Part shown: positions 24,066 through 27,707 of the stretch, in pieces
Layout of the letters: the number at the start of each line of letters is the position of its first letter
How positions within the stretch are numbered: the first letter of the stretch is position 1
Assembly (NCBI RefSeq): GCF_024223415.1
Contig: NZ_CP100500.1
From: Escherichia coli
GTDB lineage: Bacteria > Pseudomonadota > Gammaproteobacteria > Enterobacterales > Enterobacteriaceae
Strand: one strand, 5' to 3'
DNA: 64,000 nucleotides
The notes under the pieces: generated by a model
The model's input: only the letters and a program-made list of their open reading frames with translations
Databases searched by the model: none
What the model was told of the DNA's origin: nothing
Program-made: the position numbers and the translations under genes

Positions 24066-24388
24066 ACTTTCAGGCCCCTCTCATGTAACCAGTGAGTTGC
24101 ACGCAGCCTGGCGTTTTCCTCACCGGCAAGCAGTGCGCGGATAATCCCGGCTGCCTCGCTGTCGTCGTCCTTCACTGTGGTATGAAGCGTGATACCCCGG
24201 GCCACGCCACGCTTTATCGTGATGACGCCTTTTTTCTCCAGTGCGCGAAGATGCTCCACCGCTGCATTCACCGAACGGTATCCCAGCATGGCTGCCACCT
24301 CCTGATTGGTTGGCGGGAAACCACGTTCTTTCTGATAAGAAATCAGCATATCCAGCACCTGCTGCTGGCATTGAGTTAACGTCGTCAT
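24062..24388 (-). CDS. LexA-like winged-helix DNA-binding protein
   Basis: 108 aa; N-terminus resembles LexA DNA-binding domain (LTQCQQQVLDMLISYQKERGFPPTNQEVAAMLGYRS). Confidence 0.5.
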   Translation of the reverse strand: MTTLTQCQQQVLDMLISYQKERGFPPTNQEVAAMLGYRSVNAAVEHLRALEKKGVITIKRGVARGITLHTTVKDDDSEAAGIIRALLAGEENARLRATHWLHERGLKV

Positions 24389-25071
24389 GCCGCCATCTCC
24401 CTGACCAGTTTTTCTGCCTGCTGGCGAACCTGCGCCAGAAAGGCCTCACCACATGCCTCAAGTTCATCGCGCCCGATGTAGCTGATTGCCGGTCCCTTCC
24501 AGGTCTTGTCGAAAACAGCAATAGCACCAGCGAAGAAAGCGCCTGTCGGCACCTGCTTCTCATCCTTCGGGATAAACCAGGCAGGCAGTTCAAAACCAAT
24601 ACGCCCGCGAATAAAAGCAATATGATCTACATCTTCCGGCCACCACACTTCGCTGGTGGCAGCTTTGATCAGGAAAACATAGCGCCCGCCTTTATCACGC
24701 ATGGCACTGGCATGCTTCATGATGTAACGCATGCCGGTGATGTATTGCCCCTCATGCTGACTGGCGCGGCTGTATGGGGGATTACCAAAGGCAGCACCTT
24801 TAAGCTCCGCAAGGCGTTCTGACCAGTCATGCGCCAGCGCGTTGTCTTCCGCCGTGTAATACGCAGCACATTTGGCGTTATCACCGTCAGTGAACAGATC
24901 CAGAACAAACGGGCCAAACAGGGTGTTAATTCCCCAGAAAATGTTGTCCGGCGTGCGCCACTGATCGCCCACTTCCTTCAGTTCATGGGCTGGTTTGTTC
25001 CGCAGTTCCACCAGCGCCTGGCAATATTTATTACTCATTAAGCCCCCACGTAATTCCCTGAGAGATACCAC
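24385..25071 (-). CDS. Phage DNA N6-adenine methyltransferase (orphan)
   Basis: 228 aa; NPPY catalytic motif (FGNPPYS); no adjacent restriction endonuclease. Confidence 0.8.
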   Translation of the reverse strand: MVSLRELRGGLMSNKYCQALVELRNKPAHELKEVGDQWRTPDNIFWGINTLFGPFVLDLFTDGDNAKCAAYYTAEDNALAHDWSERLAELKGAAFGNPPYSRASQHEGQYITGMRYIMKHASAMRDKGGRYVFLIKAATSEVWWPEDVDHIAFIRGRIGFELPAWFIPKDEKQVPTGAFFAGAIAVFDKTWKGPAISYIGRDELEACGEAFLAQVRQQAEKLVREMAA

Positions 25072-25532
25072 TCTTCACCTGATGCAGCCCGCTTACTGCT
25101 TTTCCGTAAACACCGTTCACGACGCGCCAGAAAATTGTTTCGTTCTGGCAGGGAGTGGCTTTCACGGAATGCCGCCATCCACACCGTTGCAGCACGACGG
25201 TATAAGCCCCTGGACTCCAGTTCTTCCGCCTGGCGGGTCAGGCACAAAATCACCCGCGGGTCGTTAGTGCCGACATAGAAATTGCGCACAGGTCTGGTTT
25301 CACGAACTGGTTGTGGTTCCGGATCCTGCGCTCTCTCAGTCAGGCGCGGGAAATGTCTGTGTGTATCTCCTTCACAACGGTGAGCCACACGCCCACTCTG
25401 ACGTAACTTGCTTGCTGACTGCAGAACGCGCTGCCGTGAGTAACCTGCAAAAGCATCCGCAATGTCTCCGGAAGTACAGCCCGGATGGGCTTCAATGAAT
25501 TTCTGAACGTCATTCAAAAGACTCATGCTCAC
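25038..25532 (-). CDS. PerC/ANR-like putative transcriptional regulator
   Basis: 164 aa; motif EELESRGLYRRAATVWMAAF; a paralogous motif occurs in ORF 58540-58812. Confidence 0.4.
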   Translation of the reverse strand: MSMSLLNDVQKFIEAHPGCTSGDIADAFAGYSRQRVLQSASKLRQSGRVAHRCEGDTHRHFPRLTERAQDPEPQPVRETRPVRNFYVGTNDPRVILCLTRQAEELESRGLYRRAATVWMAAFRESHSLPERNNFLARRERCLRKSSKRAASGEEWYLSGNYVGA

Positions 25533-26470
25533 CCCCTGAATCCTGCCGGGATCTGGCTGTAGTCCACATTGTCGTAACTGGCTTTGAAGTACGGGTCTTC
25601 GCGTTTTTCTGTGTACGTGCTGACGGACGGCGATAAGCGCAGGGAAAGCTCATCCCATTTTTCCCGCAGCTTCGACGGGCTGAGCACGTTACGGCACCAG
25701 AACGGATCGCGGCTGACGCGGCTGTAAATCTCGCAGATTTGTTTGTGAGTACGACCATCCTGCACACACATCAGGCGAATTTCGTTTGCCCAGGCTGTCC
25801 AGTTCGGTTCTTTGGGACGAACCACCTCGCCGTCACATTCGGCAGCCTGCTCGTACAGGGCGATGATTTTTTTCCAGAGCCACTGTGCGCAGGTCAAATC
25901 ATCCTGCGTCCCCCACTGGCGTTTTTTAGGGCTGAATACAACCGCATCAGGATGGCGAGTTAAAAAATCCTGTTCAGCCGTCTGCGTGTCCGGTTGCGAA
26001 GAGTCCGGACGAGAAGGTTTTTTATCTGACGGATCATGTTTTGATTTTACTGACGGATCCCCGCCAGATTCTGACGGGTGAAAACCCGCTTTTTTGCCAG
26101 ATTTCGACGCATCAAATTTTGACGGGTCAGATTTTGATGCGTCAGATTTTGACGGGTCAGAATCTGACAGTTGAGAAAATGCCGCTGCCTGAAGCTTCGC
26201 AACGTTAAGCTGATAAACATTCGACGCATTGCGGTTACCCTGGCGACGCGCCTTACGCGTTAACCAGCCTTCTGCTTCCAGCCGTGCGATAGCCGTTCTG
26301 ACGGTACTCATCCCCGCGCCAATCTGGCGGGCAATGGTTTCAATCGATGGCCAGCACACACCTTCGTCATTACTGAAATCAGCCAGGCGGGCCATAATTG
26401 CCACGCTGGATAATTTCATGCCTGACGCTGCGCAACCATCCCATACATAGCCGGTTAATTTAGTGCTCAT
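25529..26470 (-). CDS. Replication initiation protein (O-like, HTH N-terminus, iteron-containing)
   Basis: 313 aa; N-terminal HTH; central SDPSKSD repeats encoded by DNA iterons; lies between Cro-side genes and nin region. Confidence 0.7.
   Translation of the reverse strand: MSTKLTGYVWDGCAASGMKLSSVAIMARLADFSNDEGVCWPSIETIARQIGAGMSTVRTAIARLEAEGWLTRKARRQGNRNASNVYQLNVAKLQAAAFSQLSDSDPSKSDASKSDPSKFDASKSGKKAGFHPSESGGDPSVKSKHDPSDKKPSRPDSSQPDTQTAEQDFLTRHPDAVVFSPKKRQWGTQDDLTCAQWLWKKIIALYEQAAECDGEVVRPKEPNWTAWANEIRLMCVQDGRTHKQICEIYSRVSRDPFWCRNVLSPSKLREKWDELSLRLSPSVSTYTEKREDPYFKASYDNVDYSQIPAGFRG
26042..26172. repeat. Replication origin iterons inside O-like gene
   Basis: About 7 direct repeats of GATTTTGACGGGTCA-like units at 15-16 bp spacing. 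Confidence 0.6.
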
Positions 26471-26681
26471 GACCGACCTCTATTTCCCTGAATTTACGAC
26501 GAAACTGTTCGAGCGGACTGAAGCACTCATGCTCATAGCCTTCGCGGAGGTAGATAACCCGTTGTGTTTCCGGTTCCCAACGAATGACTCTGACGGGCAC
26601 TCCGTAGTGATCTTTGAACCAGCGGTTAACTTGTCGCAAAGGACTGTCTCCTTCTGCCGGTTGAAATCCCCCACAGCCCAC
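26460..26681 (-). CDS. Small conserved protein upstream of replication gene
   Basis: 73 aa; C-terminal ...[24 protein letters not shown] is paralogous to ORF 61519-61818 (...RITYRREGYEYDCVMPVYQFRRDF); overlaps O start. Confidence 0.5.
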
Positions 26682-26814
26682 TCTGCAAAGCTGTGGGTTA
26701 CAATTTCCCTGTCACCTGGTACATTCACTGCATAGCAATATTCCACCTTCGCTTTTCCACCCGGTACAGGAAGCGCAATCAGTTGCGAGCGACGGTAGTG
26801 TGTTGTTAAACTGT

Positions 26815-27429
26815 TCATGCGTTAGTTTCTCCACAACCAGAAGCAATCGACGCCACGACGCCCGGAGCTGCACACTCGCGGGCGTCATTACTTTCTGAAA
26901 TGCAAAAGATTTTGTAGACCAGTGCTGCATGCTCCTGCAGCTTCGAAATTGAGAGATACAGCTCGTCGTTAATTGCTGTCTTCTCATGCGGTTCCACTAC
27001 ACCGTCTTCGATTGCTGAACGAATCTGTTTTGAATAACTGCCGATCTGTTCAATGACTTCCAGCAGACGCTGGTTAATATCGGCGTTGTCCACATCCTCG
27101 ACGTCAGGAAGAGACACAAAGACGCCATTTGCAGACTGCGCCACAGCGTCAGCAATGAAGTGAGTTCCACCAGCACGTTGCAAAATCATTGCCCATCCCA
27201 GCGGGAAAATCTGATCGCCATCGGCACGAAGGCGGTTAAATAATGCGTTCTCTGTTACATCCAGCCAGTCAGCTGCTTCAGCGTAACCACCCGGCAACTT
27301 TGCGATAGTTTTTCTGACAGCTTTCACGTACCACTCAGGCTGTTTTTCTACTTTCCAGTGATGCTTACCCACGGTTAGCCTCATCGTTCTGTGGTTTCTG
27401 TTAATCGATTTATCCATTAGATTTTTCAT
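26815..27429 (-). CDS. YdaT-like regulatory protein (CII-position gene), start uncertain
   Basis: ORF immediately downstream of Cro-like gene; Rac-type racR/ydaS/ydaT arrangement; candidate starts at 27429, 27417, 27384 (ORF extends to 27486). Confidence 0.45.
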
Positions 27430-27610: not shown

Positions 27611-27707
27611 ACGCCCTCCAAACTAAGTTTTGTTAGATGCTAATTACAAATCTATCTTTGGTCAATAAAAACTAAGATTACTTAGCAATTAAAGAAATGG
27701 TGCTCCT
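27611..27707. promoter_or_regulatory. OR-like operator/promoter region between cro and cI
   Basis: Divergent intergenic region with ACTAAG half-sites including palindrome CTAAG-N4-CTTAG at about 27672-27685. Confidence 0.5.

What the first reader, a model, noticed from the sequence alone, without database searches (positions are those of the whole stretch)
26042..26172. Prophage origin iterons embedded in the O-like gene encode a peptide repeat
About seven GATTTTGACGGGTCA-like repeats at 15-16 bp spacing sit inside the replication initiator gene and translate to SDPSKSD-type repeats, as lambda ori lies within O. This defines the prophage origin and shows the replication module is probably intact.
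Basis: partly seen in the sequence, partly recalled or inferred. Interest (0 to 1): 0.25.

Follow-up and report, generated by a model that had tools for sequence, protein, structure and literature searches.

The report
Prophage replication origin inside initiator gene
The short DNA repeats inside this prophage's replication-initiator gene are real and are conserved as DNA rather than as protein, so they are very probably the binding sites of the phage's replication origin, an ordinary lambda-style arrangement not yet described for this phage group.

Summary
Only five are tandem at exactly 15 bp (26096-26168). A sixth strong site is 33 bp away (26063-26074). The other two are half-site copies inside a GATC-containing, AT-richer block (26018-26059).

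The host gene (25529-26470, minus strand, 313 aa) is an intact winged-helix (HTH_36) "O-like" initiator. It is 99% identical to the gene of the isolated phages SfII, SfIV and Kati, and is the intact counterpart of the truncated K-12 yfdO.

In 70 distinct homologues from many Enterobacterales the repeat is conserved at nucleotide level:
- Lys is AAA in 205/205 units.
- The two Ser positions use different fixed codons (TCA 90%, TCT 89%).
- The fifth codon varies freely.
- One lineage keeps the DNA but reads it in a shifted frame.

The consensus TCA[A/G]A[A/T]TCTGA[C/T] is an 11-bp palindrome. The N-terminal domain plus repeats is found joined to different C-terminal domains, some followed by lambda P or DnaC-like genes and some by no loader gene.

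Verdict: a lambda-style origin, and a new member of a known kind. Origin activity itself is untested. Interest is modest.

The parts
25529..26470 (-). Replication initiator gene, 313 aa. It is the intact homologue of K-12 CPS-53 yfdO and of SfIV gp41. Residues 1-95 form a winged-helix HTH_36 domain (nt 26186-26470), residues about 100-165 are the repeat-bearing linker, and residues about 170-313 form a helical C-terminal domain ending in IPAGFRG.
   Evidence: ORF list; Pfam HTH_36 E 4e-11; phrog_391 E 8e-135; 99% identity to SfII, SfIV and Kati; AlphaFold2 model of the C-terminal domain, pLDDT 80.7.
26156..26167 (-). Iteron 1, TCAGATTCTGAC. A perfect 11-bp palindrome; it also scores 19.7 bits on the + strand.
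   Evidence: Weight matrix trained on other genomes: 17.7 bits on the minus strand and 19.7 on the plus strand.
26141..26152 (-). Iteron 2, TCAAAATCTGAC (matches the consensus).
   Evidence: 20.8 bits, the maximum possible.
26126..26137 (-). Iteron 3, TCAAAATCTGAC.
   Evidence: 20.8 bits.
26111..26122 (-). Iteron 4, TCAAAATTTGAT (palindromic variant).
   Evidence: 16.5 bits.
26096..26107 (-). Iteron 5, TCGAAATCTGGC. The last of the tandem 15-bp array.
   Evidence: 15.2 bits.
26063..26086 (-). Iteron 6 (TCAGAATCTGGC, 26063-26074) with its conserved upstream flank GGTTTTCACCCG. The phiP27 lineage keeps this block in a shifted reading frame.
   Evidence: 17.7 bits; nucleotide-level conservation in 69 genes; frame-shifted copies in L008 and L158.
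26018..26059 (-). Conserved block GATCCGTCAGTAAAATCAAAACATGATCCGTCAGATAAAAAA. It holds two Dam (GATC) sites at 26032 and 26056 and two GTCAG half-sites, and overlaps the least stable 30-mer of the gene. It is the candidate DNA-unwinding element.
   Evidence: Asp=GAT 69/69, Val=GTA 68/68, Ser=TCA at all Ser positions, GATC present in 69/69 and 62/69 homologues; 73% AT and dG -34.1 against a window mean of -41.4.
27637..27665 (-). pR-like promoter upstream of cro. Transcription from it would read through cII-like, orf112 and the initiator gene, and so across the origin. Listed as context.
   Evidence: Consensus scan, 9 of 12 matches; gene order as in SfIV. Function is inferred.
24385..25071 (-). 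Phage Dam-type N6-adenine methyltransferase, two genes downstream. It could act on the two conserved GATC sites. Listed as context.
   Evidence: Pfam PF05869 E 1e-45; a Dam-like gene lies downstream in 22 of 42 homologous loci. The link to the origin is speculative.

Best explanation
The repeats are the initiator-binding sites (iterons) of the prophage's bidirectional (theta-type) replication origin. They lie in the stretch of the initiator gene that encodes the flexible linker between its two domains.

Each site is an 11-bp palindrome, TCAGA-W-TCTGA, with flanking R/Y. There are five in tandem at 15-bp steps and a sixth 33 bp further on.

Proposed mechanism, by analogy with lambda O:
1. Dimers of the N-terminal winged-helix domain bind the sites and build a nucleoprotein complex.
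2. The adjacent conserved, AT-richer block with two GATC sites (26018-26059) melts.
3. The C-terminal domain brings in the host helicase machinery. No phage P, DnaB or DnaC gene follows in this phage.
4. pR transcription crosses the region.

The SD(P/A)SK peptide repeat is a by-product of the DNA constraint in a tolerant linker.

Shown here: the repeats, their dyad symmetry, nucleotide-level selection, linkage to the N-terminal domain, and identity to the gene of viable phages. Inferred: binding, melting, helicase recruitment and origin firing.
For: 1. The gene is an initiator homologue with an N-terminal winged helix. Annotators call it 'replication protein O' or 'primosomal protein' in SfII, SfIV and Kati.

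2. The selection acts on DNA.
- I picked 353 units from 70 distinct genes by peptide pattern alone. Ser1 is TCA in 316/353, Lys is AAA in 205/205, Glu is GAA in 71/74 and Ser3 is TCT in 229/257. The fifth codon is free: GCA, GGG, CCG, GCG, GCC, ACA and others.
- In the same genes, invariant residues of the N-terminal domain have scrambled codons (K19 is AAG 41 / AAA 29; S42 uses six codons). Background usage is TCA 17%, TCT 10% and AAA 64%.

3. phiP27 and Citrobacter L158 keep GTTTTCACCCGTCAGAATCTGAC but read it in another frame, giving VFTRQNLT instead of GFHPSESG.

4. Dyad symmetry: 3.77 of 5 arm pairs are complementary in register, against at most 2.1 in any other register.

5. Modularity.
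- mEp460_4F5 shares only the C-terminal half and phiNP only the N-terminal half plus repeats.
- The N-terminal domain plus repeats is joined to at least three C-terminal classes. These are followed by lambda P, by a DnaC-like gene, or by no loader gene.

6. Covariation.
- Homologues at 72% or more N-terminal identity have TCAAAATCTGAC; those at 69% or less have TCAGAATCTGAA.
- Relatives at 39-45% identity carry unrelated palindromic repeats in the same position: Min27 GGGGCAGGAGCTGCCC x3 and RothC TATGCCATCnGATGGCA x4.

7. Copy number varies by whole units (313 to 325 aa), as expected for iterons in a tolerant linker.

8. The published paradigm is the same: iterons that are imperfect inverted repeats plus an AT-rich tract inside O, with extra iterons adding residues to O (PMC7466680), and different iterons inside P22 and L gene 18 (PMC8022706).
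Against: - There is no experimental evidence for binding or origin activity in this family. The SfIV paper does not mention an origin, and the motif strings appear in no relevant paper.
- The AT-rich element is modest: 73% AT over 30 bp, about the 95th percentile of the window. This is well short of a striking unwinding element.
- No helicase or loader gene is adjacent, and the C-terminal domain has no informative family or fold match. The recruitment step is therefore a guess.
- A 15-bp spacing puts neighbouring dimers on nearly opposite faces of the helix. That is not the geometry usually pictured for a wrapped O-some.
- Nucleotide-level conservation shows that the DNA has a function, but does not show that the function is an origin.
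Confidence: 0.8

Rival explanations
1. The sites are operators rather than an origin. The initiator, or another phage or host DNA-binding protein, binds them to regulate transcription through the early-right operon (autoregulation or a roadblock). Replication would start elsewhere.
For: Nucleotide-level conservation and dyad symmetry fit any binding site for a dimeric protein. The AT-rich element is weak. No loader gene is adjacent.
Against: - The position between the two domains of an initiator homologue is the same as in lambda, P22 and L origins.
- Every subfamily of HTH_36 O-like proteins examined has its own palindromic repeats at the same position.
- The repeats travel with the N-terminal domain across C-terminal classes that pair with P or DnaC-like loaders, which is the pattern expected of an origin-recognition module.
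- No other repeat cluster of this motif exists in the 64-kb window.
Confidence: 0.1
2. The functional element is the peptide repeat, a low-complexity linker that grew by replication slippage. The DNA repeats would then have no function of their own.
For: The linker is Ser/Asp/Lys-rich and probably disordered. Copy number changes by whole 5-residue units.
Against: - Codons are fixed position by position while the amino acid at the fifth position is free.
- Synonymous sites in the same genes are scrambled elsewhere.
- At some positions the nucleotide is more conserved than the residue: the third base is 93-97% conserved where the residue is only 48-49% conserved.
- One lineage keeps the DNA in a different frame.
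Confidence: 0.05
3. The conservation reflects an overlapping feature, such as an antisense or alternative-frame small ORF, or a structured RNA.
For: - Open frames exist in two other frames: 26041-26208 on the plus strand (55 aa) and 26047-26229 on the minus strand (60 aa).
- The strand folds better than shuffled sequence, z = -5.0.
- A terminator-like hairpin lies on the plus strand at 26075-26088.
Against: - The open frames and the fold follow automatically from a stop-free palindromic repeat.
- Rfam gives only a sub-threshold miRNA-hairpin match, 30.7 bits against a gathering score of 97.
- Unit number changes freely between strains, which a folded RNA or a real protein would tolerate poorly.
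Confidence: 0.03

Closest known systems
Phage lambda ori within gene O, including the 933W/Stx-phage variants with six iterons
   Same: - Iterons with imperfect dyad symmetry lie in the middle of the initiator gene, followed in the direction of transcription by an AT-richer tract.
- The initiator has an N-terminal DNA-binding domain and a C-terminal recruitment domain.
- The gene is transcribed from pR.
- Extra iterons lengthen the protein (PMC7466680).
   Different: - The sites are 11-13 bp at a 15-bp period, not 19 bp.
- The sequence is unrelated.
- The protein matches HTH_36, not Pfam's lambda O family.
- No P gene follows.
- The AT-rich tract is weak and carries two conserved GATC sites.
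P22 gene 18 and phage L gene 18 origins
   Same: These are O analogues with their own iterons inside the coding region. Phage L has six imprecise copies of an 11-bp repeat, a size and number similar to those here (PMC8022706).
   Different: Those phages encode a DnaB-type helicase (gene 12) next to the initiator, and this prophage does not. The repeat sequences are unrelated.
Initiator-only ('initiator-solo') lambdoid replication modules, as in SfV orf39, ST64B and mEp460. The term is recalled from Weigel and Seitz 2006, which I could not read here.
   Same: - A single O-like HTH_36 gene has no adjacent loader gene.
- The internal repeats sit at the same position.
- The C-terminal tail IPAGFRG is the same.
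   Different: The N-terminal domain is only about 39% identical, and the repeats are unrelated (GGTAGTGCAGGAGATTCAC type).
Plasmid iteron origins (the Rep families of P1, F, R6K and pPS10)
   Same: Tandem initiator-binding repeats lie next to an AT-rich region. In P1 and oriC, Dam GATC sites are also part of the origin (my own knowledge).
   Different: Plasmid iterons are about 17-22 bp at roughly 22-bp phasing, are bound by Rep monomers, and lie outside the rep gene. Here the sites are short palindromes at 15 bp inside the gene.

Membership tests
Lambdoid origin embedded in the initiator gene (functional class) | Several repeated sites inside the initiator gene, between its DNA-binding domain and its C-terminal domain | tested here: met
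   Six strong sites at 26063-26167, in codons about 101-136 of a 313-codon gene.
Lambdoid origin embedded in the initiator gene (functional class) | The sites have dyad symmetry, as expected for binding by a dimer | tested here: met
   The consensus is TCAGA-W-TCTGA. On average 3.77 of 5 arm pairs are complementary in register, against at most 2.1 in other registers.
Lambdoid origin embedded in the initiator gene (functional class) | The sites are selected as DNA, not as peptide | tested here: met
   Codon-locked units with a control from the same genes, and a frame-shifted copy that keeps the DNA.
Lambdoid origin embedded in the initiator gene (functional class) | An AT-rich unwinding tract next to the iterons, on the downstream side | tested here: inconclusive
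   The least stable 30-mer of the gene is at 26020-26049, at 73% AT and about the 95th percentile of the window. The block is conserved at nucleotide level, but it is not strongly AT-rich.
Lambdoid origin embedded in the initiator gene (functional class) | Site sequence co-varies with the initiator's DNA-binding domain, and the two are inherited together | tested here: met
   TGAC changes to TGAA below about 70% identity. Relatives at 39-45% identity have unrelated repeats. The N-terminal domain plus repeats recombines as one unit.
Lambdoid origin embedded in the initiator gene (functional class) | The initiator binds the sites and the region supports replication | not testable with these tools
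   This needs a gel-shift or footprinting assay, and a plasmid replication or marker-frequency assay.
Lambda O protein family (Pfam Phage_rep_O) | Sequence match to the family model | tested here: not met
   The Pfam scan lists HTH_36, GntR, HTH_29, PaaX and DnaD_N, but no lambda O model, at E up to 0.01. The protein is therefore O-like in role, not a member of that family.
Lambda-type initiator plus loader module (O-P) | A P, DnaC-like or DnaB-like gene directly downstream | tested here: not met
   The downstream genes are PerC-like, Dam, LexA-like and RusA. Relatives with other C-terminal domains do have lambda P or DnaC-like genes.
PHROG 391 'replication initiation O-like' / HTH_36 initiators | Full-length profile match | tested here: met
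   phrog_391 E 7.8e-135 over residues 1-313; HTH_36 at 42.9 bits against a cut-off of 25.

The most novel reading that the evidence does not exclude
This is a distinct origin design rather than a lambda copy. It would have short 11-bp palindromic iterons at 15-bp phasing, so that neighbouring dimers sit on nearly opposite faces of the helix. It would have an unwinding block bracketed by two strictly conserved Dam sites, which the phage's own neighbouring Dam methylase (and host SeqA) could use to time firing. And the initiator would need no phage loader because its conserved C-terminal [IV]PxGFR[GS] tail docks a host replication factor directly.
Probability: 0.25. Interest if true: 0.5.

Novelty: new member of a known kind. 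Interest (0 to 1): 0.3.

Why it matters
- It locates the probable origin of a very common group of enterobacterial prophages: the SfII/SfIV/CPS-53 type. Some match to the gene is found in 3355 of 5426 complete E. coli genomes, and a near-full-length copy in 1575. The published genome papers I could read do not mark an origin for this group.
- It gives a clean example of a coding region whose codons are dictated by a DNA-binding site.
- That matters for annotation, for interpreting 'synonymous' variation and repeat-number variation in this gene, and for building replicons or measuring prophage induction by marker frequency.
- The loader-less architecture and the conserved GATC pair are testable leads on how such phages recruit and time the host replisome.

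Tried and rejected
- Literature: searches for SfV/SfII/SfIV origin descriptions, yfdO, 'initiator-solo' and the literal motif strings found nothing on this origin. The SfV genome paper is not held.
- DnaA boxes: no enrichment and none in the origin region.
- Rfam: only a sub-threshold miRNA-hairpin match caused by the palindromes.
- First IMG/VR scan: it returned only near-identical E. coli copies. These were useful for copy number but not for divergence. The species-dereplicated genome scan supplied the diversity.
- TGACnnGTCA as the palindromic unit: I considered it and rejected it, because its centre is the variable codon. The conserved dyad is centred on position 6 of TCAGAWTCTGA.
- A DnaA-box reading of GTTTTCAC upstream of iteron 6: rejected, because C/G varies there among homologues.

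Full report
**1. What is there**

The finding lies inside a 942-nt ORF on the minus strand (25529-26470, 313 aa). Read on the gene strand, the region is

TCA GAT TCT GAC CCG / TCA AAA TCT GAC GCA / TCA AAA TCT GAC CCG / TCA AAA TTT GAT GCG / TCG AAA TCT GGC AAA ...

This encodes SDSDPSKSDASKSDPSKFDASKSGK.

- Tandem Repeats Finder reports a 15-bp period with 4.3 copies at 26098-26161. The repeat finder gives five in-register copies at 15-bp steps.
An eighth lies at 26021-26036.
- Only five copies are at 15-bp spacing. The rest are 22-33 bp apart.
- The 13-mer GTCAAAATCTGAC with at most 2 mismatches occurs six times in 26063-26168 and only twice in the other roughly 64 kb.
- A weight matrix built only from other genomes finds six sites of at least 15 bits here (26156-67, 26141-52, 26126-37, 26111-22, 26096-107, 26063-74) and one elsewhere.

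**2. The gene and its neighbourhood**

- The protein has an N-terminal HTH_36 winged helix (residues 23-81). It matches phrog_391 'replication initiation O-like' over its whole length at E 8e-135.
- It does not match Pfam's lambda O model.
- It is 98.9-99.2% identical at DNA level to the 'replication protein O' or 'primosomal protein' genes of the isolated phages Kati, SfII, SfIV, PhiR29_1 and others.
- It is the intact counterpart of the 5'-truncated yfdO of K-12 prophage CPS-53. Some match to the gene occurs in 3355 of 5426 complete E. coli genomes, and a match covering at least 80% of it in 1575.
- The gene order is cI (plus strand), then cro, cII-like, orf112, initiator, PerC-like, Dam, LexA-like and RusA. 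This matches SfIV.
- A pR-like promoter lies upstream of cro.
- No P, DnaB or DnaC gene follows the initiator.
- The early region as a whole is 95-98% identical to several isolated coliphages.
- The repeat block is identical to that of SfIV. SfIV was isolated as a viable phage (PMC3851460).

**3. Is the constraint on DNA or on peptide?**

I collected homologues by their N-terminal domain only, so the choice was blind to the repeats. The sources were GenBank phages and one genome per species. This gave 70 distinct genes at 55-100% N-terminal identity, from Citrobacter, Kosakonia, Yersinia, Proteus, Providencia, Tatumella and others.

I then picked units by peptide pattern alone (S-x-x-[DEVGA]-x), which gave 353 units. 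Their codons are locked:
- The first Ser is TCA in 316/353.
- Lys is AAA in 205/205.
- Glu is GAA in 71/74.
- The third-codon Ser is TCT in 229/257.
- The fifth codon varies freely, giving Pro, Ala, Thr or Gly through CCG, CCC, GCA, GCG, GCC, ACA, ACG and GGG.

In the same genes, invariant residues of the N-terminal domain have scrambled codons. K19 is AAG 41 / AAA 29, and S42 uses all six Ser codons. Background usage is TCA 17%, TCT 10% and AAA 64%.

So two Ser positions in one 5-residue unit each keep a different, otherwise uncommon codon across genera. That is selection on nucleotides.

The block downstream shows the same pattern. GATCCGTCAGTAAAWTCAAAnnnnGATCCATCAG has Asp=GAT in 69/69, Val=GTA in 68/68 and Ser=TCA throughout.

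At some codons the third base is 93-97% conserved while the residue is only 48-49% conserved.

The phiP27 lineage gives the clearest single case. It retains GTTTTCACCCGTCAGAATCTGAC but reads it in a shifted frame, as VFTRQNLT rather than GFHPSESG.

**4. Anatomy of the site**

- The consensus is TCA[A/G]A[A/T]TCTGA[C/T], an 11-bp palindrome TCAGA-W-TCTGA.
- On average 3.77 of 5 arm pairs are complementary in register, against at most 2.1 in any other register. 79 units are perfect.
- The alternative dyad, TGACnnGTCA, is centred on the variable codon and is therefore the less likely recognition unit.
- Typical genes carry 4-6 strong sites.
- Among close relatives, copy number changes by whole units, giving proteins of 313, 318, 323 and 325 aa.
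- The nucleotide-conserved region runs from the first iteron (26167) to about 26018, roughly 150 bp, and then decays.
- Its distal part contains two GATC sites 24 bp apart (26032 and 26056). It also overlaps the least stable 30-mer of the gene: 73% AT, dG -34.1 against a window mean of -41.4, about the 95th percentile. This is a plausible but unimpressive unwinding element.

**5. Modularity and covariation**

- mEp460_4F5 shares only the C-terminal half of the gene. phiNP shares only the N-terminal half plus repeats. The break is at about 25992-26028, just past the conserved block.
- Across the 70 genes, the N-terminal domain plus repeats is fused to at least three C-terminal classes.
- Members ending in HWNSPEGW.. 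are followed by a lambda P gene (PF06992). Proteus and phiP27-type members are followed by a DnaC/IstB-like ATPase. Members ending in [IV]PxGFR[GS], 45 of 70 and including this one, are followed by PerC-like, methylase, DUF968 or antirepressor genes.
- This is what an origin-recognition module swapped between different helicase-recruitment modules should look like.
- Site sequence drifts with the domain. It is TCAAAATCTGAC at 72% identity or above and TCAGAATCTGAA at 69% or below.
- HTH_36 O-like proteins only 39-45% identical carry quite different palindromic repeats at the same position: Min27 GGGGCAGGAGCTGCCC x3, RothC TATGCCATCnGATGGCA x4, and mEp460 GGTAGTGCAGGAGATTCAC x3.

**6. Most likely mechanism**

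This is a lambda-style origin. Initiator dimers bind the six palindromes. The neighbouring AT-richer block melts. The C-terminal domain recruits host helicase machinery. pR transcription crosses the site. The peptide repeat is a passenger in a tolerant linker.

The published paradigm matches:
- 19-bp imperfect inverted repeats plus an AT tract in the middle of O, a dimeric O protein, and extra iterons that add residues to O (PMC7466680).
- Distinct iterons inside P22 and L gene 18, with L having six 11-bp repeats (PMC8022706).

The steps from binding onward are inferred.

**7. Rivals**

- An operator-only role cannot be excluded by computation, but it fits the modular pattern and the position less well.
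- A purely peptide-level repeat is contradicted by the codon data.
- Overlapping ORFs or RNA are by-products of a stop-free palindromic array.
- There are no DnaA boxes in the region.

**8. Novelty and score**

The kind of element is textbook. For this phage group I found no description of the origin in the literature I could search. It is therefore a new member of a known kind.

Differences from lambda worth noting:
- short sites at a 15-bp period;
- a conserved GATC pair beside a phage Dam gene;
- no loader gene;
- a conserved C-terminal tail.

Together these allow a more novel reading, to which I give about 25% probability. Overall interest is 0.3.

Noticed in passing
window 25529-25549 (codons for ...IPAGFRG); also L005, L002, L009, L090 and 45 of the 70 homologues: A C-terminal tail [IVL]PxGFR[GST] is shared by initiators with unrelated C-terminal domains, including mEp460/SfV-type proteins. 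It is present when no loader gene follows. It is absent when a lambda P or DnaC-like gene follows. It may be a docking peptide for a host replication factor.
   Followed up: partly
window 26032 and 26056 (GATC sites); Dam gene at 24385-25071 (minus strand): Two GATC sites 24 bp apart inside the origin block are conserved in 69/69 and 62/69 homologues, with Asp always GAT. A Dam-type methylase gene lies downstream on the same strand in 22 of 42 loci with enough flanking sequence. This suggests methylation-dependent control of the origin.
   Followed up: partly
L008 (phiP27) about nt 1950-1985; L158 at the same position: A compensated frameshift changes the peptide GFHPSESGGDP to VFTRQNLTPDP while keeping the DNA GTTTTCACCCGTCAGAATCTGAC almost unchanged.
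   Followed up: yes
L090 (mEp460) 1810-1849; L092 (RothC) 1808-1848; L091; L093: Distant HTH_36 O-like genes each have their own palindromic repeats. After those repeats, three of the four share three copies of GAACCAGTCA at 12-17-bp spacing (encoding ..SFEPVxEP..), whatever their iteron type. This parallels the CCGTCAG x3 block here.
   Followed up: partly
window 26075-26088, plus strand: A terminator-like hairpin, CGGGTGAAAACCCG followed by a run of six T, lies antisense to the initiator gene between iteron 6 and the tandem array. It overlaps nucleotide-conserved sequence. Its function, if any, is unknown.
   Followed up: no
protein database hits P0001-P0120: Most database entries for this protein are marked 'partial' and have hundreds of member sequences, so assemblies often break inside this gene. 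The cause could be mosaic prophages that share only half of the gene, or the repeats themselves.
   Followed up: no
E. coli K-12 CPS-53 (hits H55-H57), equivalent to window 25529-26237: The K-12 yfdO remnant keeps the C-terminal domain and all the iterons, but lacks the part encoding the winged helix. It is an origin without its binding domain.
   Followed up: no
window 26480-26818 (minus strand) against the RefSeq annotation in L003 1462-1641: Upstream of the initiator, the window has a 112-aa ORF (phrog_1170, unknown function). RefSeq genomes instead annotate a 60-aa DUF4222 protein overlapping the initiator start. The gene models differ between relatives.
   Followed up: no
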